In this document: in pieces, positions 18,852-44,781 of the stretch
How positions within the stretch are numbered: the first letter of the stretch is position 1
Layout: the number at the start of each line of letters is the position of its first letter
Made by a program: the position numbers and the translations under genes
From: an uncultured virus (IMG/VR IMGVR_UViG_3300021511_000004)
Lineage: Duplodnaviria > Heunggongvirae > Uroviricota > Caudoviricetes
Length of the DNA stretch: 64,000 bases
Strand: one strand, 5' to 3'
Virus record (IMG/VR): IMGVR_UViG_3300021511_000004
The notes under the pieces: model-generated
The model's database searches: none
Seen by the model: the letters and a program-made list of their open reading frames with translations, nothing else
Told to the model about the DNA's origin: nothing

Positions 18852-18942
18852 TGGTGGGCCAGAAAGGATTTGAACCTTCGCGGAATCATAGATTCACCGG
18901 GTTAAAAACCCGATACTCTCGACCTGGCTGAGTGACTGGCCC
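18852..18942 (-). tRNA. tRNA-Lys(UUU) with long variable arm
   Basis: Cloverleaf, GGGCCAG/CTGGCCC-ACCA, V-stem GAATC/GATTC. Confidence 0.85.
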
Positions 18943-19833: not shown

Positions 19834-19930
19834 TGGAGACCCTGGTAGGATTTGAACCTACGTAGTTAAATAATTTAACATATAAAATGATTTGCAGTCA
19901 TCTGCCTTAACCGGACTTGGCAACAGGGTC
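19834..19930 (-). tRNA. tRNA-Cys(GCA) with long AT-rich variable arm
   Basis: Cloverleaf, U73, CCA; V-stem GTTAAA/TTTAAC. Confidence 0.85.
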
Positions 19931-27625: not shown

Positions 27626-27713
27626 TGGCTCCGAGGGCAGGGATCGAACCTGCGATGGTCTTTCGACACGGGTGGTTAACAGCCACCTGCTACTGCCACT
27701 GAGCGACCTCGGA
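27626..27713 (-). tRNA. tRNA-Asn(GUU) with long variable arm
   Basis: TCC acceptor, G73; V-arm GTC-GAAA-GAC. Confidence 0.9.
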
Positions 27714-27906: not shown

Positions 27907-28003
27907 TGGTACCCCTGGTAGGAATTGAACCTACAACCTCACGCCTATCTAGCGCCAACTCCGGGCATAAACCGGATGCTCTGCCTTATTGAGCTACAGG
28001 GGC
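27907..28003 (-). tRNA. tRNA-Ile(UAU)-type with 25-nt variable region
   Basis: TCCGG-TT-TAT-GC-CCGGA; G37. Confidence 0.8.
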
Positions 28004-30439: not shown

Positions 30440-30941
30440 ATTTTGTACCTTCTCGGCATTTATCGCATAATGTTGCTTTCCAATAACCTTCAACATTTAC
30501 TTTTCCGGGTTTGCCACATCTTTCGCAAGTTTCGTATGAGTTATATTCAGCATCGCTAATGGCATCTGAAATTTTTTCTTCTGTTGTCATATATAATTTT
30601 CTTTTGAAATGTATAATTTTCCAGTATAGTCTTCCCCATTTTCTTTTAAACATAAAATGACTAATTATATAATTAACCTTATTTATAAAAGTTTCTGGAG
30701 ATTCAGTGCCATAATAAAATCGTAACCCACCAAATTTTTCTTTTACTTGGTGAGCAGTAACCTTTATATCTTTATTACCAATTAACAAAGTAATTTTTTC
30801 ACATAAATTATGAATGAGATCATACCAACCATCTCCACATTCAAATCCCCAGTGCATACAGGTGTCTCTCATATCTCCACCATAATCTTTAAATATAACT
30901 GGGAATTTTTCAACTAGCTGTAGTTCGAGTTCTTTTTTCAT
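30438..30941 (-). CDS. Phage hypothetical protein
   Basis: GFECGDGW, QVKEKFGGLRFY, CERCG..TLC. Confidence 0.7.
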   Translation of the reverse strand: MKKELELQLVEKFPVIFKDYGGDMRDTCMHWGFECGDGWYDLIHNLCEKITLLIGNKDIKVTAHQVKEKFGGLRFYYGTESPETFINKVNYIISHFMFKRKWGRLYWKIIHFKRKLYMTTEEKISDAISDAEYNSYETCERCGKPGKVNVEGYWKATLCDKCREGTK

Positions 30942-31486
30942 GTTACTAACCCCTTAATATCAAAATGAAATATTTGTGGTTCCTTTTCTGGAGGACATAC
31001 TTCAGTTAAGTCTTTTGGATGCCATGTCCAACCTTCAATGTCTGCAGCTAATCCATAATGAGTATCTTTGACTCTTTGAATTACATATTGTTTTTCTCTC
31101 ATATCTTTCATTGCAGCATTTACAGTATGCGTTCGTCTCGTATTAGAAAGATCTTTTGATATAACAATACGCATACCCTTTGTCATTTCTAATTCGTTCA
31201 TATTTCTAACCTTTCGACATCAAAATGAAATATATGTGCTTTCTTTTCCGGCACAGATATTTCAGCCAAATCATGATAATGCCAATAGAAAGAGTTAATC
31301 ATTGCAGCTTTTCCATATTTGGTGTTTGTAATACTATCAATTCTATATTGTTTGCCTGCCATATTTCTCATTTCTCTGGTTAGTGTGTGTGTTTGACTTG
31401 TTCTATAAGGATCATCTGATATAGTAATATGCATACCTTTTTCCATTTCACTTTCTTTCATTATTCACCTATTTTTTGTTAAGGTT

Positions 31487-31875
31487 TGGTGGAGGCGGTC
31501 GGAGTTGAACCGACGTCCACAAAAGTTCAAATCAAGTATCTACACTCATAGCTAACTTTTAAAATTCTTTAACACCACGTTCAATGACGGAGTTAGCAAA
31601 ACAACAGTGCTAAAGTAGCCCATTTGCTGGTAGTTTTCAAAACATAAATGCCAGTGTACAGAACTAATTGCCCATTTATATTTCTATCTCTCTAGTCGAC
31701 GCCCCATCCCAATCCGAGAGAATGAAAGGGTGGAACGGATTATGCCGCTAGGGCAAGATCTTCGTAATAATCATCTGCGATTATATTTAAGTGGTCATGT
31801 TTTTATACGGAGTCACATACCATCTCCGGAGTGCAACCATCATCTCTTCTTCTATGTCGAAGCCATTTCGCCCCC
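31487..31875 (-). ncRNA. ssrA: tmRNA; tag (A)ADDYYEDLALAA*
   Basis: 5' GGGGGCGAAATGGCTTCGAC, 3' T arm and CGCCTCCACCA with G3:U, internal tag ORF ending LAA. Confidence 0.95.
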
Positions 31876-32080
31876 ATATTGTTTTAATATAATATTGGAA
31901 AACTAATAAGATAACCTTCAACATCTGATAATTCAATAGTTTCTTTTGAAGTCTTACATATCCAACCTCTATGGACATCTTCTTCAATATCAATAATAGT
32001 TTCCCAAACATGATTTATAAATATTTGGTCAGATTGTAGACGTTTCCATTTACAGTACGCATTCTCACATTCTTTGTAAT

Positions 32081-32620
32081 TCATGGCAAGTTCATTAAAA
32101 TGTTTTTTACAACGTTTCCATCACAACCTTTAAATTGTTTCATGATTGGTCCCATTGCTTGCATTTTATTTTTATAAATTGAAAAGCCTATATTTTCATA
32201 TATCCATGCAGAAATTTCTTCCTCTGTTGCTTGTTTGGGAAGATATTCTTGTGCAATTTCAATCTTTGGAGAAGTTAATGAATTACCCAATTCTTGAAAT
32301 TTTTTATTAACTAACTTTTTTAATTCCGCAGGGCTAATTCCATTAATATCAGATTCAGTTATATATTTATCAGAATATAATAATCTTTCTTTTTCATTTT
32401 TGATATATTTTTTCAATAATTTAATAGTATCATCATCAGTTGCATCAGCTGGTTTTACACCAATTTCAGGAAACATGCTTATAATTGCTCTAGCAACAGT
32501 TTTTTGTGCAATTGCCATACTAAATTTATCTTCTGCAACAACTCCATGCTTTCTTAATTTTATTTCTATAGACATAAATGTTTTAAGATCTTCTCTTATT
32601 CGTTTCAATATTTCAGACAT
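32081..32620 (-). CDS. GatB/YqeY-domain protein
   Basis: EIAQEYLPKQATEEEI...MGPIMKQFKG..DGNVVK. Confidence 0.75.
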   Translation of the reverse strand: MSEILKRIREDLKTFMSIEIKLRKHGVVAEDKFSMAIAQKTVARAIISMFPEIGVKPADATDDDTIKLLKKYIKNEKERLLYSDKYITESDINGISPAELKKLVNKKFQELGNSLTSPKIEIAQEYLPKQATEEEISAWIYENIGFSIYKNKMQAMGPIMKQFKGCDGNVVKNILMNLP

Positions 32621-33492
32621 TTTTCTCCTCTCTTATTCAATAAGCATTACTTGAATTGCTCCTCTTTCATGTTCATCGACTTCTATATAACATTTTGTTT
32701 TTGTCCAATCTCTAGTAGGTATAACGTAACAAGTTTTAATTTCATGAACCGGATAACAAAGCCCGTCATGTATAGTCATCACTTTTAAATCTGTGGGAGC
32801 TTGTTTTTAAACGTCTACGAACATCATCAATTGTTTTTAAGTCATATGCCATGATATATTCCTTTCATGTTTATTCGTTATCCCATTCTTTTCTCATTTT
32901 GTCTATGTTTTTCCATTTAATATATAAGTGCTGACATTTTGGACATTGACTGGGACCAGGATTGCTTTCCCATACAAACCCACACCTTAAACATCTATAT
33001 TTTGCTAAAGTTTTCATTATACCACCCAAGGTGTTATCATGTTTGTTGCAGTATTATTAATCCATTCAGTTTCTCTTACATATTTGATACCATTTGTAGA
33101 TGTGTGAATTTTTGCAATTAAAGAATTTGCTACTCCATACTTGCTCATGTAAGTAAGAGTCAAATATGATTCTGCATCTGGTGATTCTGATGGTCTTTTA
33201 GTCCCATCTAAATAATCTTTTACTTCCTCAGAATCCTTACTCATTTTAACCATCCATTGTTCACATATAAAAATAACAGCATCAGCCTCAGTATCGTGAG
33301 CAAGACTTACTGTTAAATTTGCAAGGTGTTGAATTGTGATTCCAGCCCACCCTACAATGGGATTTAACATATTATCTTTAATAATAAAGTATACAGGAGA
33401 AATTTGACCCTTTTCTGCTAAAATAATTGATGTTGTATTAAATAAGTCTTCTGCCATTTTTCTATCTTCATCGTTCATTTTGACTCCTTTTT

Positions 33493-33570
33493 TGGAGGCT
33501 CAGGTGGTGGGGATTGAACCCACGACGCAGGGATCTAGAGGCCCCCGCTCTGCCGCTGAGCTACTGAGCC
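33493..33570 (-). tRNA. Amber-reading tRNA (anticodon CUA), non-canonical
   Basis: GGCTCAG/CTGAGCC-U-CCA, normal D and T arms, loop CT-CTA-GA, extra CAC between T stem and acceptor. Confidence 0.7.
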
Positions 33571-33900
33571 TCATAACAAATCTATAAGACTTGCTAAATT
33601 ATAGTTATACATATAAAATGAATAAAATAAAATGAGAAATATATAAGCAGATCCTAAGTAAATTATTTCACGTTTGTTTAATATCTTTTTTAAAGCACGA
33701 GTTACTACATATGTTAGTAGAATAAGGAACGGAACTTTTAACAACAACATAGCTTCAACTGGTCCAATTAAGTTCATAACCCAATTAACAAAAGGATTAA
33801 GTTCCATCCCACCATTTTGTAATAATATACAAGTACTAACAAAGTCAAAAATATTTAAAATCCATAAAGCTATACATGCTGAAATAAGAAATAATTTCAT
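33571..33900 (-). CDS. Small membrane protein (DUF5658-like)
   Basis: LNIFDFVST...GGMELNPF; three hydrophobic helices. Confidence 0.65.
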   Translation of the reverse strand: MKLFLISACIALWILNIFDFVSTCILLQNGGMELNPFVNWVMNLIGPVEAMLLLKVPFLILLTYVVTRALKKILNKREIIYLGSAYIFLILFYSFYMYNYNLASLIDLL

Positions 33901-34090
33901 CTTTTCACTATACAGAAAAAGTAATCATTTGAACCAGCATCACCAACTAATAATTCAAGTTTGTGATCTTCCAATTCACCATCAATAGCTTCAAATATAG
34001 ATTCATCATTCATTAGAGCATGAGAATATACATTACCATTTTTGTCCTCTGGTATTGGTGTATCATGCGGAAATATTATTTCGGTTTCTT

Positions 34091-34384
34091 TCATAACAAA
34101 TTCAACCTTTCTACATGTTTACTACAAACTTCAGTAGCAATTGCTGTTATTTCATTATTCAAATCTGGCTCTCTAAACTCTATATAGGGAATATCTTCCC
34201 ATTCAAACTTTTGTTTGATATTTTCTAGTTGATTTAGTCCCTTAACACCCAAGTATATTAAGGTACCGTTTGACCAACGGAACGAAGGACCGCGAAGCAG
34301 GAATTCAGCAACTGCATGACCTGCTTGCACGGCCCTTTGTGATATTGAAAGATCCTTACGCACAATCACAAACAACTTCGTCAT
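34091..34384 (-). CDS. Peptidyl-tRNA hydrolase, Pth2 family
   Basis: KLFVIVRKDL..QRAVQAGHAV, LIYLGV, FREPDLNNEITAIA. Confidence 0.85.
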   Translation of the reverse strand: MTKLFVIVRKDLSISQRAVQAGHAVAEFLLRGPSFRWSNGTLIYLGVKGLNQLENIKQKFEWEDIPYIEFREPDLNNEITAIATEVCSKHVERLNLL

Positions 34385-34691
34385 CAATCTGATTCTCCCA
34401 CTCTTCTTTAATTTTATCAAGAAGATGAGAACTTGGTCTATTACCATCTCTTGGTTGTTCAATCATATCGTAAGGAGTGTTATTAAACATATTACAATAA
34501 ATAATGTGTCTATGTCTAAACTCCCAACCATAGTTATTCCAACCTTCATTATAACTATTACAAAGTTGTTTGGTTTTTTCAGAAGCTGAATCCCAATTTT
34601 TCGGTTTCCTTAATGGTTTACAGGTTCTGATTTTTTGTGCTAAAGATTTTTGTTCTTCTTTGATCTTGTGTTTTAATTCTTTGTACGTCAT
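34356..34691 (-). CDS. Hypothetical protein overlapping and upstream of Pth2
   Basis: GAGGAG SD; FRHRHIIY..PYDMIE motif. Confidence 0.7.
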   Translation of the reverse strand: MTYKELKHKIKEEQKSLAQKIRTCKPLRKPKNWDSASEKTKQLCNSYNEGWNNYGWEFRHRHIIYCNMFNNTPYDMIEQPRDGNRPSSHLLDKIKEEWENQIDDEVVCDCA

Positions 34692-34745
34692 GGATTCCTC
34701 TCCTCTTTTTCAGTTTTTTGATTTTAAGTTTTATCCAAAAACTGA

Positions 34746-34931
34746 TTAAGGAGGTCCACGACATATCTACGGATATGGTGGCCGTGCTATCTAATCATCA
34801 GTCCACTCTATATGGCATTCTTCACCACAACAAGCACACTCATGACCGCTGTCTTCATTAATATCGGCGGTATCTGTGGCTTCGTCTGTTGGATCGCCAG
34901 AAATGCCTATATCCTCACTTTTATCTTGCAT
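34746..34931 (-). CDS. Leader peptide (46 aa, acidic, Cys cluster) with amber-readthrough extension IARPPYP*ICRGPP
   Basis: AAGGAG SD, ATG at 34931, TAG at 34791-3 and 34767-9, TAA at 34746-8. Confidence 0.65.
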
Positions 34932-35667
34932 TATTATACTCCTTTGTCCTTCATGTTATTTTCTTTTTGGTATTAAACACTATAATACCTCCCGTTTTAT
35001 TTTTGTTCTAAGTTTTATCAGATGTTATCTTGTTGAAGCCTTTGACGTCTTAATATAATACGAAGCATATCTTCATTATTCTGTAGTTGTAACTTCTTCC
35101 AAAAATTGTATCGTCTAATATAATCTGTTGATGGAGTATTATCAAATCTAACTCCAATTTGATAAGTATGTACTGTTTGTCTAAGAAGAGTTCTTAAGTT
35201 TTCTTTGGCTTCACATATAGCAGTACAATTATTTATTAACATACACGTATGATACGGATTCTGCATAATTCAAATATATCCTATTTAAAATTCTGTTGAT
35301 TTCTTGATGGTTGATTTTTTGCAGGTTTATTGTTTTTTGCCAATGAATGAATATATTATTTGAAATTTTTTTCCTTTGATGACCATTTATTGACAAGACA
35401 TGAGGATGAAGACCATCTAATATTTTATTTAGTTCTTCTCTATAATTCTCTTTGTCTTTGCAGAGCTGTGTGCAACATGAGTTAACTATACAACTATTAC
35501 ATGGATTTTTCACGTTTAATCCAATCTGCTCCTCCATACCAAAAACAAGATGTGAATGGTTTTCTGCAGCATTCACATACAGACTCAAAAATCATGTTTC
35601 GACTAGAAGGAAGTTTATATTTTTTTTGACATTCTTTGCAGTATAACATATAATTCCTTTCAAAGGT

Positions 35668-35756
35668 TGGTGAGGGGTGAAGGAATTGAACCTCTCGTCT
35701 CCCTCCCGTACGTTTTATGACACCGAGTTTACAGCCCGGCAATAGGAACACCCCCC
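35668..35756 (-). tRNA. tRNA-Tyr(GUA)-like lacking a D arm
   Basis: Acceptor, anticodon arm CCGGG-CT-GTA-AA-CTCGG, T arm, ACCA; only 10 nt in the D region. Confidence 0.7.
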
Positions 35757-36068
35757 ATAATTCCATGTAACAATCATGCGTAAATATTTGAACTGTTCAG
35801 TATAACTTAAATGTGGATTGAAAAATCCTTTATATATAAAATAGCTTGCACCAGGTACTTCTAGCAAATAATCATCTTTTTGTAATTTACTCATAATTTT
35901 AACTATCTGCAAGGGACCTGTATAATCTTTAACTTTTGTTATCATCTCAATCCAATCCAGTTTCTTTTTTCCATAACATTTAGCACATATTACTTTGTAA
36001 CATCTTTCAGAATAACAAACTAACTCATCCCATCCTTTACCTTGACACCTTGGACACTTTTCTTTCAT
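35715..36068 (-). CDS. DnaJ-type Zn-finger family protein
   Basis: CPRCQGKG...CAKCYGKKKLDWIE; 3' end overlaps the tRNA-Tyr-like gene. Confidence 0.65.
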   Translation of the reverse strand: MKEKCPRCQGKGWDELVCYSERCYKVICAKCYGKKKLDWIEMITKVKDYTGPLQIVKIMSKLQKDDYLLEVPGASYFIYKGFFNPHLSYTEQFKYLRMIVTWNYGGCSYCRAVNSVS

Positions 36069-44693: not shown

Positions 44694-44781
44694 TGGAGCC
44701 GGTAGAGGGATTCGAACCCCCGCGTGACAAAGTCATCCTGCTTACAAGGCAGGTGCTCTCGGCCAGCTGAGCGATACCGGC
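44694..44781 (-). tRNA. tRNA-Thr(UGU) with long variable arm
   Basis: GCC acceptor; V-arm TGAC-TTT-GTCA. Confidence 0.9.

What the first reader, a model, noticed from the sequence alone, without database searches (positions are those of the whole stretch)
33493..35011. Amber-readthrough / ribosome-arrest leader + Pth2 + CUA tRNA operon
Seen: an ORF missing from the track (ATG 34931, AAGGAG SD) encodes MQDKSE...HECACCGEECHIEWTDD and continues in frame as TAG-IARPPYP-TAG-ICRGPP-TAA, i.e. two tandem stop-I-x-R-(x)-PP units. The second TAG sits at the tip of a hairpin (CATATC/GATATG). Another hairpin (CAGTTTTT/AAAAACTG) lies just before the next SD. Four overlapping genes follow, including a Pth2-family peptidyl-tRNA hydrolase, and then a CUA-anticodon tRNA abutting the last stop codon. 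A TTAGAACA motif heads the unit and tmRNA lies 1.6 kb further on. Known: RAGP/RAPP/RGPP are arrest motifs of SecM/ApdA/ApdP-type peptides, and Pth2 hydrolyses peptidyl-tRNA. Inference: only ribosomes that read through UAG reach the arrest motif, so the leader could sense suppressor tRNA or RF1 activity and control, or be rescued by, the downstream genes. This would be a stop-codon-suppression feedback circuit.
Basis: partly seen in the sequence, partly recalled or inferred. Interest (0 to 1): 0.92.

Follow-up and report, generated by a model that had tools for sequence, protein, structure and literature searches.

The report
Amber-codon-gated arrest leader in phage
A large phage carries a tiny leader gene whose two in-frame UAG stop codons must be read through before the ribosome reaches a stalling motif that unmasks the next gene, so a peptidyl-tRNA-hydrolase-like enzyme seems to be made only when an amber-suppressor tRNA is active.

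Summary
On the minus strand a 46-codon ORF (34931-34794) continues in frame as TAG-IARPPYP-TAG-ICRGPP-TAA. It lies upstream of p111, a Pth2-fold protein, two small genes and a CUA-anticodon tRNA. The same design, 1-2 in-frame TAGs followed by [R/K]-x-P-P, lies upstream of the Pth2-like gene in 23 of 30 IMG/VR loci and in 43 of 52 assessable metagenome clusters; about 0.35 per 30 loci is expected by chance. The Pro-Pro codons form the foot of a hairpin that pairs with the Shine-Dalgarno sequence of p111, and the inner stems differ between loci. 105 of 112 leader TAGs are followed by a purine. Other relatives put the TAG at codon 3-4 of, or inside, the Pth2-like ORF, so all forms tie Pth2-like synthesis to UAG decoding. 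The closest relative uses the standard code. Best reading: a suppression-sensing translational switch built from an RGPP arrest peptide and SD unmasking. This is inferred, not shown at the bench. Caveats: the window's own tRNA is atypical (3-nt insertion, G37, one stem mismatch). What the Pth2-like/p111 pair does is unknown. The hairpin at the second TAG and the TTAGAACA motif did not hold up.

The parts
34997..35010 (-). TAGAACAAAAATAA motif ahead of the leader. It could be a promoter element, but this is not validated.
   Evidence: Present in the window. TAGAACA is also upstream of the leaders of L001 and L004. It is not enriched in the window.
34939..34944 (-). Shine-Dalgarno AAGGAG of the leader ORF, 7 nt before the ATG.
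   Evidence: Most homologous leaders also have an AGGAG-type SD.
34794..34931 (-). Leader ORF, first 46 codons (MQDKSE...CACCGEECHIEWTDD). It is acidic and Cys-rich.
   Evidence: The C..GEEC..EW.DD stretch is shared with L001, L004 and the metagenome relatives L074-L086. No Pfam or PHROG hit.
34791..34793 (-). First in-frame UAG, followed by A (AUA Ile).
   Evidence: The position is conserved in L001 and L004. 43 of 63 distinct leader cores have two TAGs.
34770..34790 (-). Inter-TAG unit IARPPYP. A Pro lies directly before the second UAG.
   Evidence: The residue before a leader TAG is Pro in 28 and Thr in 32 of 112 cases.
34767..34769 (-). Second in-frame UAG, followed by A (AUA Ile).
   Evidence: A purine follows 105 of 112 leader TAGs.
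34749..34766 (-). ICRGPP. The arrest core RGPP is 34760-34749 (CGU GGA CCU CCU).
   Evidence: RGPP occurs in 30 of 63 distinct leader cores. The others are RAPP, RSPP, RDPP, RPP or KPP types. The literature reports RGPP as the most robust arrest core (PMC12992588, section 8).
34746..34748 (-). UAA stop of the read-through leader.
   Evidence: Leader stops in 23 loci are TAA 14, TGA 6, TAG 3.
34692..34757 (-). SD-sequestering hairpin. The 5' foot GGACCUCCUU (34757-34748: the Gly, Pro and Pro codons plus the first base of the stop) pairs with the p111 SD region (GAGGAG 34705-34700). The inner stem is 34745-34737 / 34718-34710.
   Evidence: RNAfold gives -18.5 kcal/mol, z -4.77, with the SD 5/5 paired. 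The same architecture appears in 20 of 23 loci against 9 of 117 control genes.
34356..34691 (-). p111, an all-helical protein of no known family. It is the conserved partner gene and is fused to the Pth2-like domain in some relatives.
   Evidence: tblastn finds it in most loci. Alignment A2. AF2 model pLDDT 87.7, with no PDB match. Fusion ORFs occur in L022-L026.
34091..34384 (-). Pth2-fold protein (peptidyl-tRNA hydrolase 2-like). It overlaps the end of p111 by 29 nt.
   Evidence: Pfam PTH2 at 21 bits, below the cut-off of 23. Profile against PDB Pth2 2zv3, E 6e-6. AF2 pLDDT 94.2, and all 13 best Foldseek hits are Pth2 structures.
33897..34094 (-). p65, a small ORF with a 4-nt overlap. It has no family and is not conserved in the module.
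33571..33900 (-). DUF5658 membrane protein. It is also present in L001, between the Pth2-like gene and the tRNA.
   Evidence: Pfam PF18902, 4.4e-9. L001 homologue.
33493..33570 (-). tRNA-like gene with a CUA anticodon and an encoded CCA end. It is atypical: a CAC insertion between the T stem and the acceptor stem, G37 instead of A37, and a C31:U39 mismatch.
   Evidence: All 9 relatives compared are canonical, with a CUCUAAA loop. The sequence is identical in contigs of three runs.
31487..31875 (-). Phage tmRNA (tag ADDYYEDLALAA). This is context, not part of the switch.
   Evidence: L001 has a tmRNA in the same relative place.

Best explanation
The leader is a translational switch that reports whether UAG is being read as sense.

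How I think it works:
- Ribosomes start at ATG 34931.
- Without an efficient amber suppressor, RF1 releases them at the first UAG. The downstream hairpin stays closed, and the Shine-Dalgarno sequence of p111 stays paired with the CCUCCU Pro-Pro codons.
- When a CUA tRNA wins against RF1 at both UAGs, the ribosome reaches R-G-P-P and stalls there, at the Pro-Pro codons and/or the following stop.
- The stalled ribosome covers the 5' foot of the hairpin. This frees the SD, so p111 and the translationally coupled Pth2-like gene are translated.
- Two UAGs make the response steep and the off state tight.

The output is a two-part enzyme (p111 plus a Pth2-fold domain) that travels with suppressor tRNAs. 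It probably deals with peptidyl- or aminoacyl-tRNA made as a consequence of suppression.

Shown: the anatomy, its conservation, the in-frame relation, the codon context, the predicted pairing, and the standard code in the closest relative. Inferred: readthrough, stalling, the direction of control, and the enzyme's substrate.
For: (1) Conservation. A leader with in-frame TAG(s) then [RK]x?PP lies within 600 nt upstream of the Pth2-like gene in 23/30 IMG/VR loci. It is also present in 43/52 assessable metagenome clusters. Background is 9 hits in 463,244 codons, or 0.35 expected in 30 loci.

(2) Only TAG is used. In the 48 nt before PP there are 34 in-frame TAG, 0 in-frame TGA and 3 in-frame TAA, against 13 TAG and 50 TAA/TGA out of frame.

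(3) Codon context. A purine follows 35/35 leader TAGs and 105/112 in the larger set (p 1.5e-23). Pro or Thr precedes 60/112. The review PMC6412442 (passages) states three relevant things: poly-Pro C-termini weaken termination most, the 3' base affects RF1, and multiplexed UAG raises the gain of a suppression switch.

(4) Peptide-level selection. Pro-Pro is encoded by 13 different codon pairs (26 of 63 are CCTCCT). Arg is encoded by AGA, CGT and AGG.

(5) RNA structure. The SD of p111 is at least 75% paired and z is below -2 in 20/23 leaders, against 9/117 control genes (p 1.7e-14). The partner is the PP/stop region in 17/23. The inner stems differ in sequence between loci.

(6) Three architectures share one logic. 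The N-terminal form M-x(1-3)-TAG in frame with the Pth2-like ORF occurs in ME3, L019, L035, L036, XacN1, Xoo-sp13, RAS14, CM1, L088, L120 and L128. Baseline for that pattern is 8/484 open frames. Internal TAGs, never TAA or TGA, occur inside the Pth2-like ORF in L008, L012, L017, L028 and L036, and in 11/52 clusters.

(7) Not general recoding. The window has 88% coding density under table 11, and TAG ends 11/125 crude ORFs with short extensions. In the closest relative, 40 kb of the late region has 92-93% coding density under the standard code. Terminase genes carry no internal stops.

(8) RGPP is reported as the most robust arrest core and as refractory to EF-P (PMC12992588, abstract and section 8).

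(9) A CUA tRNA is nearby in 24/30 loci and 33/39 clusters.
Against: - There is no experiment. Readthrough, stalling and SD unmasking are all inferred.
- The window's own tRNA departs from its relatives in three ways: a CAC insertion, G37 and a C31:U39 mismatch. ARAGORN does not call it. It may be weak or dead, and the rest of this phage's genome is not held.
- The hairpins are minimum-free-energy predictions in AT-rich RNA. 44/117 control SDs are also at least 75% paired.
- Many leaders give nascent chains of only 8-17 residues. Arrest by RAPP-like cores in chains that short has not been tested in what I read.
- 4/52 clusters and 5/30 IMG/VR loci show no gating of any kind. 5 of 37 gated clusters have no CUA tRNA within the DNA held.
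- In XacN1, Xoo-sp13 and ME3 an ATG or GTG after the TAG could serve as the start, so gating there is not compulsory.
- The gating-by-tRNA association is weak statistically (p 0.04 and 0.29).
Confidence: 0.68

Rival explanations
1. The leader senses release factor 1, not the phage tRNA. Readthrough of the two UAGs rises when host RF1 is depleted, inhibited or outcompeted for any reason. The switch then reports termination capacity at UAG. The CUA tRNA is only one of several inputs.
For: The design measures the suppression-to-termination ratio and cannot tell the two apart. 5 of 37 gated clusters, and L008 and L011, have no CUA tRNA in the DNA held. The window's own tRNA looks impaired.
Against: A CUA tRNA is within about 1 kb in 24/30 loci and 33/39 clusters, often abutting the gene. 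Near-cognate readthrough of two successive UAGs would be very rare without a cognate tRNA (principle stated in PMC6412442). No RF1-directed gene was identified here.
Confidence: 0.12
2. TAG is simply a sense codon for these phages at that stage of infection. On this reading the leader is an ordinary RAPP-type arrest leader that monitors something else, such as a localisation or folding process, and the TAGs are incidental.
For: Stop-codon recoding with phage suppressor tRNAs is widespread (Borges preprint, passages). L036 and the Lak phages do carry TAGs in other genes.
Against: Among the IMG/VR loci, homology-supported in-frame TAGs occur only in the Pth2-like gene and its leader. The closest relative's late region and terminase use the standard code. 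TAG is the one feature shared by leaders whose other residues differ, and 43/63 cores have two. The window leader is acidic, and I saw no hydrophobic or signal-like segment in it on reading the sequence.
Confidence: 0.08
3. The UAGs are true stops and nothing behind them is translated. The conserved stretch is then an RNA element only (anti-SD plus hairpin). It would be opened by simple coupling to the short ORF or bound by a factor, and R-x-P-P would be a by-product of the sequence AGAGGNCCUCC.
For: CCUCC must be kept to pair with GGAGG. 26/63 cores use CCTCCT. SD-sequestering hairpins exist without arrest peptides.
Against: Pro-Pro is kept with 13 codon pairs, including CCACCC, CCGCCG and CCCCCA, and Arg with three codons. 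The motif is always in frame with the TAGs and with an SD-ATG, and no TGA and almost no TAA intervenes. A purine follows the TAGs. In other relatives the conserved Pth2-like protein itself can only be made by decoding an internal TAG.
Confidence: 0.07

Closest known systems
RAPP-type arrest peptides with SD unmasking (SecM-secA, ApdA, ApdP, ApcA; Sakiyama 2021, Morici 2024, Fujiwara 2025)
   Same: A small upstream ORF ends in R-(A/G)-P-P. The downstream SD is held in a hairpin that a stalled ribosome would open. RGPP is reported as the strongest core (PMC12992588, section 8; the other papers seen as abstracts).
   Different: The input is different. Here the arrest motif lies behind one or two in-frame UAG stops, so it is reached only after nonsense suppression. 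The window leader showed no hydrophobic or signal-like segment on reading. The regulated genes are a Pth2-like enzyme pair, not Sec or YidC components. The setting is a phage.
prfB (RF2) autoregulation through an in-frame UGA (recalled, not read here)
   Same: An in-frame stop codon early in a translation-factor gene makes its synthesis depend on how that stop codon is handled. The N-terminal and internal TAG forms of the Pth2-like gene resemble this most closely.
   Different: prfB escapes by +1 frameshifting, and its product recognises the stop. Here escape is by a suppressor tRNA, and it is unknown whether the product acts back on UAG decoding.
Leader-peptide attenuators (trpL, hisL) and the synthetic amber-codon leader switch of Liu, Qi, Yanofsky and Arkin 2011 (cited in PMC6412442, passages)
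   Same: A short leader carries tandem codons for the tRNA being sensed. The synthetic version uses UAG in a leader, and multiplexed UAG gives a tighter switch.
   Different: Those act on transcription termination. No terminator-like site is found here (0 in 31000-36000), and the predicted target is the SD. This is a natural case, not an engineered one.
AMD1 stop-codon readthrough followed by an arrest peptide (PMC13025110, abstract only)
   Same: Ribosomes that read through a stop are then arrested by a nascent-peptide element.
   Different: AMD1 is eukaryotic, has no suppressor tRNA and a long tail, and the stall limits translation of the same mRNA rather than switching on a downstream cistron.
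Suppressor-tRNA-driven late-gene switch of recoded phages (Borges et al. preprint, passages)
   Same: A phage-encoded CUA tRNA makes expression of TAG-containing genes conditional on its own activity.
   Different: There many late genes carry TAG as a sense codon. Here the genomes use the standard code, and the TAGs are concentrated in one small leader or in one gene next to the tRNA.

Membership tests
RAPP-like ribosome arrest peptides | C-terminal core Arg-(Ala/Gly)-Pro-Pro at or near the end of a small ORF | tested here: met
   RGPP-TAA in the window. RGPP in 30 and RAPP in 4 of 63 distinct cores. The others are RSPP, RDPP, RPP or KPP.
RAPP-like ribosome arrest peptides | Encoded directly upstream of the regulated gene, whose SD lies in a structure that a stalled ribosome would open | tested here: met
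   Predicted hairpin 34757-34692 with the SD 5/5 paired. 20/23 leaders against 9/117 controls.
RAPP-like ribosome arrest peptides | Demonstrated elongation arrest (toeprint, peptidyl-tRNA accumulation) | not testable with these tools
No RNA run is listed for this DNA.
RAPP-like ribosome arrest peptides | N-terminal signal or membrane segment that lets the secretion machinery release the arrest (monitoring substrates) | tested here: not met
   The window leader is acidic (MQDKSEDIGISGDPTDEATD...), and no hydrophobic segment was seen on reading it. Short leaders start M-x-TAG.
Pth2 peptidyl-tRNA hydrolase (PF01981) | Score over Pfam's gathering cut-off | tested here: not met
   The window protein scores 21.0 bits against a cut-off of 23. 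18 of 21 family members match at E<=0.01, best 4.3e-7.
Pth2 peptidyl-tRNA hydrolase (PF01981) | Pth2 alpha/beta fold | tested here: met
   AF2 pLDDT 94.2. The best 13 Foldseek PDB hits are all Pth2 entries, TM 0.67-0.80, probability 1.00. Profile against 2zv3, E 6e-6.
Pth2 peptidyl-tRNA hydrolase (PF01981) | Catalytic residues (Lys of the GKGK loop and Asp of the DAGxT motif, as recalled for the Sulfolobus enzyme) | tested here: inconclusive
   In the HMMER alignment to 2zv3, the GKGK loop is replaced by S-x-SQ, and the acid aligns with invariant E72 or D74. The residue roles are recalled, not read.
Canonical amber-suppressor tRNA | CUA at positions 34-36 of a 7-nt loop with U33 | tested here: met
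   The loop is CUCUAGA.
Canonical amber-suppressor tRNA | Continuous cloverleaf (7-bp acceptor stem stacked on a 5-bp T stem) and A37 | tested here: not met
   A CAC insertion lies between CCCAC and CUGAGCC. Position 37 is G. C31:U39 is a mismatch. ARAGORN makes no call. All 9 relatives compared are canonical, with A37.
Stop-codon-recoded phage (code 15 type) | Many genes with homology-supported in-frame TAG and low coding density under table 11 | tested here: not met
   Window coding density is 88%. The closest relative's late region is 92-93%. Terminases carry no internal stops. Among the IMG/VR loci only Pth2-like genes carry such TAGs.
Transcription attenuator leader (trpL type) | Alternative terminator and antiterminator hairpins after the leader | tested here: not met
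   0 terminator-like sites in 31000-36000. The hairpin is followed by A-rich sequence and the SD.

The most novel reading that the evidence does not exclude
The module is a natural amber-suppression homeostat. The p111/Pth2-fold enzyme would act on the suppressor tRNA itself, hydrolysing its aminoacyl or peptidyl form, or on the products of UAG readthrough. Because the enzyme's synthesis needs UAG decoding, it would close a feedback loop like that of prfB. That would let standard-code jumbo phages run a controlled level of stop-codon readthrough. It would define a portable three-part system of suppressor tRNA, UAG-gated sensor and hydrolase. It would also explain the orphan CUA tRNAs of XacN1-like, ME3-like and many uncultured phages.
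Probability: 0.25. Interest if true: 0.92.

Novelty: new variant of a known kind. Interest (0 to 1): 0.86.

Why it matters
- **New input for a known device.** Arrest-peptide leaders and leader-peptide attenuators are textbook devices. A natural one whose input is nonsense suppression did not turn up in six full-text searches or in the passages I read.
- **A target for orphan tRNAs.** It gives a concrete, conserved target for the CUA tRNAs of standard-code jumbo phages. The XacN1 authors looked for such targets and did not find them (PMC5852040).
- **A link for phage PTH2.** It ties the archaeal-type PTH2 of jumbo phages to stop-codon suppression. Iyer et al. noted that enzyme without this link (PMC7824862).
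- **Agreement with engineering practice.** The design rules match those that genetic-code engineers reached independently: multiplexed UAG, Pro before the stop, a purine after it, and a leader switch (PMC6412442).
- **Possible uses.** It may be an intermediate on the road to full TAG recoding. It also offers a compact natural sensor part for suppressor-tRNA activity.

Tried and rejected
- The whole genome of the window is not held.
- The search for related loci with p111 alone found nothing. A profile rescan of viral contigs returned the same loci again.
- blastn of the region against the phage collection found only a 60-nt tRNA match in Xoo-sp13.
- The hairpin with TAG2 at its tip has z from -2.35 to +1.87 in 14 leaders and no common structure. 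I dropped it as a functional part.
- The TTAGAACA motif is not enriched. The sigma-70 and terminator scans were uninformative: 26 sites against 25.2 expected, and 0 terminators.
- Other M-x-TAG-[IV] starts in the window are scattered in-gene chance matches. None is followed by a long conserved frame.
- A pattern scan of five relatives' genomes for further RGPP-type leaders found only the known one plus one out-of-frame match. The pattern was too narrow to count as a test.
- p111 has no Pfam or PHROG hit, no PDB sequence hit, no Foldseek hit at E<=0.001 and no usable Atlas hit.
- Complex prediction of the Pth2-like protein with p111 gave no verdict.
- No RNA holder is listed among the public runs, so nothing can be said about expression.
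- Reinitiation at the codon after TAG was considered and rejected. 12 of 35 such codons are GTT, GTA or GTC, which are not start codons.
- Pyrrolysine: ARAGORN's 'Pyl' label is automatic for CUA. No pyl genes were looked for.
- I did not open any supplementary files. XacN1 Table S3 and the Borges tables may list these tRNAs.
Full report
**What is there**

The features lie on the minus strand.
- An SD (AAGGAG, 34944-34939) and an ATG (34931) open a 46-codon ORF.
- The ORF continues in frame as TAG (34793-34791), IARPPYP, TAG (34769-34767), ICRGPP (RGPP = 34760-34749) and TAA (34748-34746).
- Directly after it comes a hairpin, TCAGTTTTT / AAAAACTGA, then the SD GAGGAG (34705-34700) and the ATG (34691) of a 111-aa ORF, p111.
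- Next come a 97-aa Pth2-like ORF (34384-34091, overlapping p111 by 29 nt), a 65-aa ORF and a DUF5658 membrane protein (Pfam 4.4e-9).
- One base after that ORF's TGA stop, a 78-nt tRNA-like gene begins (33570-33493) with CUA in the anticodon position.
- A tmRNA lies 1.6 kb further on.

The window is AT-rich (32% GC). It carries 24 tRNA genes, and also DNA polymerase, helicase and nucleotide-metabolism genes. I read it as part of a large phage genome. Four public runs labelled hydrothermal vent metagenome hold at least 95% of the sampled words of the stretch. Two of them may be the source.

**Relatives from IMG/VR**

The Pth2-like protein retrieved 30 IMG/VR loci at 40-76% identity.
- ARAGORN finds a CUA tRNA just downstream of the gene in 24 of 30. 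The misses are L004 (contig ends 24 nt after the gene), L008, L011, L027, L029 and L030.
- I translated the 600 nt upstream through stops. In 23 of 30 loci this shows a short ORF with one or two in-frame TAGs followed by [R/K]-x(0-1)-P-P.
- Examples (# = TAG): L001 ..EWDD#VKRPDT#VNVRGPP; L004 ..EWDDD#IAQLPDT#VIRGPP; L003 ..GGP#IKAPP#SIARAPP; L006 MT#IQIPP#IRGPP; L014 MT#IHKMEYG#VARGPP; L022 MS#VSKPP.
- The misses are L017 (only 73 nt of upstream DNA held), L019, L020, L021, L027, L029 and L030.
- The same pattern occurs 9 times in 463,244 background codons (six frames of all loci and the window). That gives about 0.35 expected in 30 upstream regions.

**Relatives from metagenomes**

A metagenome scan gave 80 more loci, the best of 195 relatives. 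They fall into 65 clusters at 95% identity, and 52 of these hold at least 520 nt upstream.

| Feature (of 52 assessable clusters) | Clusters |
|---|---|
| Leader | 43 |
| M-x(1-3)-TAG in frame at the start of the Pth2-like ORF | 4 |
| TAG inside the Pth2-like ORF | 11 |
| At least one of the three | 48 |
| None | 4 |

A CUA tRNA is present in 33 of 39 clusters with both flanks held. The two collections overlap in part, since some contigs are the same, and one cluster contains the window's own sequence. Pooling both with the window gives 63 distinct leader cores.

**Evidence that the TAGs are decoded and the peptide matters**

- In the 48 nt before the Pro-Pro codons of 23 non-identical leaders, the in-frame stops are 34 TAG, 3 TAA and 0 TGA. 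Out of frame there are 13 TAG and 50 TAA/TGA. This is partly by construction, because the search pattern required an in-frame TAG.
- Every one of the 35 leader TAGs in that set is followed by a purine. In the 63 cores the figure is 105 of 112 (p 1.5e-23).
- The residue before a TAG is Thr (32) or Pro (28) in 60 of 112 cases.
- Pro-Pro is written with 13 different codon pairs. Arg is written AGA, CGT or AGG. This argues for selection on the peptide and not only on an RNA motif.
- The core is RGPP in 30 of 63. RAPP (4), RSPP (6), RDPP (6), RPP (5), KPP (6), RPPP (2) and single KKPP, KRPP, KIPP and RASP cores make up the rest.
- Fujiwara et al. report that RAPP and RGPP support arrest in several peptide contexts, that RGPP is generally the most robust, and that the arrest is refractory to EF-P (PMC12992588: abstract; section 8).
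- A review of engineered UAG switches states that poly-Pro C-termini weaken termination most, that the base 3' of UAG affects RF1, and that multiplexed UAG tightens the off state (PMC6412442, passages).
- That a 3' purine favours amber suppression is my recollection (Bossi 1983). I did not read it here.

**RNA structure**

I folded each stretch from the Pro-Pro codons to the p111 start.
- The CCNCC(N) codons, with the stop or the next few bases, form the foot of a hairpin by pairing with the GGAG core of the p111 SD.
- The inner stems differ completely between loci. Examples are TCAGTTTT/AAAACTGA in the window, L001 and L004, TTATTAAGT/ACTTAATAA in L005, and TGTGG/CCACA in L003.
- The SD is at least 75% paired in 21 of 23 leaders. 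It is both so paired and has z below -2 in 20 of 23.
- Among 117 other SD-bearing genes of the same DNA the figures are 44 and 9 (p 1.7e-14). Segment lengths and shuffle numbers differed somewhat between the two sets.
- The partner of the SD lies within the first 17 nt, the PP/stop region, in 17 of 23. In the others it lies a few bases further on.
- In L001, L002 and L015 the read-through leader runs on through the hairpin and stops overlapping the p111 ATG. In L016 it stops a few bases before the ATG. These ribosomes would open the hairpin and couple to p111 even without a long stall.
- No terminator-like site is present. The predicted target is therefore translation initiation, not transcription.

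**One logic in three forms**

*N-terminal TAG.* Some relatives lack the leader but place the TAG in the enzyme's own frame.
- Acinetobacter phage ME3 starts ATG ACT TAG ATT, in frame with the Pth2-like ORF. Its record annotates a tRNA with anticodon CTA 450 nt upstream.
- Two huge uncultured phages start MK#INN.. (L035) and MS#IYK.. (L036), and L019 starts MKR#NEE...
- XacN1, Xoo-sp13, RAS14 and CM1 have SD-ATG-AAG-(AAG)-TAG-A in frame with a longer ORF whose C-terminal part is the Pth2-like domain.
- RAS14 and CM1 have no ATG in the first 21 in-frame codons after the TAG that I read, and RAS14's annotated start lies 25 codons downstream of the upstream ATG, inside the stretch conserved with XacN1. 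XacN1, Xoo-sp13 and ME3 do have an ATG or GTG that could serve as a start.
- The baseline for M-x(1-3)-TAG directly before an open frame of at least 100 codons is 8 of 484. One of those 8 is the L019 case itself.

*Internal TAG.* Internal TAGs, never TAA or TGA, interrupt the conserved Pth2-like ORF in L008, L012, L017, L028 and L036. Alignments from 32-37 other loci span the TAG.

In all three forms the protein is made only if UAG is read as sense. This supports reading the leader as an activator on readthrough rather than a repressor.

**Not general recoding**

- The window is 88% coding under table 11. TAG ends 11 of 125 crude ORFs, with extensions of 0-23 codons.
- In the closest relative (the contig of L001), 40 kb around the terminase is 92-93% coding under the standard code. 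Reading TAG as sense adds almost nothing.
- Terminase matches in three relatives have no internal stops.
- Among the IMG/VR loci, homology-supported in-frame TAGs are confined to the Pth2-like gene. The other flagged cases are antisense shadows or near-identical loci.
- Only the replication and metabolism part of this phage is in the window, so I cannot exclude recoded late genes in this very genome.

**The tRNA**

- Relatives have canonical cloverleaves with the loop CUCUAAA. Their discriminator bases and acceptor stems vary, so the amino acid inserted is probably not conserved.
- The window's copy differs from its nearest relatives, for example L086, in three ways: a CAC insertion between the T stem and the 3' acceptor strand, G37, and a C31:U39 mismatch.
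- ARAGORN misses it, and Rfam aligns only positions 7-64.
- Contigs of three runs cover it without a single difference. The leader is identical in all four runs. It is therefore not an assembly error.
- Whether this variant still works is open. That A36-A37-A38 is the usual context for modification of UNN-reading tRNAs is recalled.

**The proteins**

- The Pth2-like family (alignment A1, 21 sequences) matches archaeal Pth2 2zv3 at E 6e-6.
- 18 of 21 members hit Pfam PTH2 at E<=0.01, but the window protein is under the cut-off.
- The AF2 model (pLDDT 94.2) has Pth2 structures as its 13 best Foldseek hits.
- The GKGK loop of Pth2 is replaced by S-x-SQ. Invariant residues include R9, Q20, H23, E72, D74 and T80. 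Hydrolase activity and substrate therefore need testing.
- p111 is helical (pLDDT 87.7) and has no relatives of known structure or family.
- In L022-L026 p111 is fused to the Pth2-like domain in one 183-189-aa ORF. The two most likely act together.
- Lak phages, which are TAG-recoded, have the Pth2-like gene ungated, about 600 nt from a tRNA with anticodon UUA. The link is thus between this enzyme and suppressor tRNAs in general.

**Mechanism**

My best reading follows (confidence 0.68).
- RF1 ends most leader translation at the first UAG, and the p111 SD stays paired.
- When a CUA tRNA outcompetes RF1 twice, the ribosome reaches RGPP and stalls at the Pro-Pro codons and/or the stop. This holds the hairpin's foot in its mRNA channel.
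- The SD, 44-49 nt downstream of the Pro-Pro codons (34705-34700), is then free for a second ribosome.
- The Pth2-like gene follows by coupling.
- The tRNA gene is probably co-transcribed at the 3' end of the unit: the genes overlap or abut on one strand, and no terminator-like site lies in 31000-36000. If so, the proteins would be made only once the tRNA cut from such transcripts is functional.

What the enzyme then does is inference. It may clear peptidyl-tRNA produced when stops are read through; tmRNA and a YqeY-like gene lie next door. Or it may act on the suppressor tRNA itself and close a prfB-like feedback loop.

**Comparison and novelty**

- The parts are known: an RAPP-type arrest core, an SD-sequestering hairpin, and a leader with tandem codons for the sensed tRNA.
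- The input, nonsense suppression sensed through in-frame stops placed before the arrest core, did not turn up as a natural system in six full-text searches.
- It also did not appear in the passages I read. The XacN1 paper found no targets for its CUA tRNAs. Iyer et al. note jumbo-phage PTH2 without any link to amber codons. The Borges preprint does not mention a hydrolase. The Fujiwara paper does not mention phage, amber or suppressor.
- The closest engineered analogue is the UAG-in-leader transcription switch cited in PMC6412442.
- I did not open any supplementary files, and they may list some of these tRNAs.
- I rate it a new variant of a known kind.

**Limits**

- Everything about function is inferred from sequence.
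- The structures are minimum-free-energy predictions.
- The collections overlap.
- The association of gating with a nearby tRNA is statistically weak (p 0.04 and 0.29).
- The window's own tRNA may be defective.

Noticed in passing
L031 940-951; L153 137-148; L034 940-951; L155 140-151: Phages XacN1, Xoo-sp13, RAS14 and CM1 have SD-ATG-AAG-(AAG)-TAG-A in frame with the long ORF that ends in the Pth2-like domain. RAS14 and CM1 have no ATG in the first 21 in-frame codons after the TAG. This is a candidate target for the CUA tRNAs whose targets the XacN1 paper could not find.
   Followed up: partly
L038 1468-1479 (Acinetobacter phage ME3): ATG ACT TAG ATT is in frame with the Pth2-like gene gp266, which is annotated from a GTG 12 codons later. 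The record annotates a tRNA with anticodon CTA 450 nt upstream. ME3 is a cultured phage that carries the module.
   Followed up: partly
L022 2731-3297, L023 2743-3291, L025 799-1362, L026 2734-3291: p111 and the Pth2-like domain are fused into one ORF of 183-189 aa, behind a minimal leader of the type M-x-TAG-V-x-K-P-P-stop.
   Followed up: partly
L032 844-916 and L037 734-806 (Lak phages): A tRNA with anticodon UUA lies about 600 nt upstream of an ungated Pth2-like gene in TAG-recoded Lak phages. The enzyme therefore keeps company with suppressor tRNAs of another anticodon too.
   Followed up: no
window 18852-18942, 19834-19930, 27907-28003, 27626-27713, 44694-44781: Several tRNA genes are unusually long by ARAGORN: Lys 91 nt, Cys 97, Ile-UAU 97, Asn 88, Thr 88. 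They may carry insertions or introns.
   Followed up: no
window 32081-32620 (-) and 32871-33029 (-): A YqeY/GatB-like protein (Pfam 1.5e-7; PHROG 'tRNA amidotransferase') and a small zinc-ribbon protein lie between the CUA tRNA and the tmRNA. The region is an island of translation-related genes.
   Followed up: no
window 30938-31201 and 31198-31461 (-): Two tandem 87-aa paralogues with overlapping stop and start lie just downstream of the tmRNA.
   Followed up: no
window 34667-34739 (run X1, record 3): A low-depth 202-nt contig matches the RGPP side and the p111 start but has 76 other letters in place of the 71-nt hairpin region. I read it as a co-occurring strain with a different hairpin sequence.
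   Followed up: no
window 34794-34931 (-): The long N-terminal part of the leader (C-x-CC-GEEC-H-I-EW-TDD, acidic) is conserved in the closest relatives (L001, L004, L074-L086) and absent from most other leaders. Its role is unknown.
   Followed up: no
L035 1834-1881: A second TAG leader (MK#IKITIRGPTYLF*) lies after the Pth2-like gene and before the CUA tRNA of a 462-kb uncultured phage. Its core is RGPT rather than RGPP.
   Followed up: no
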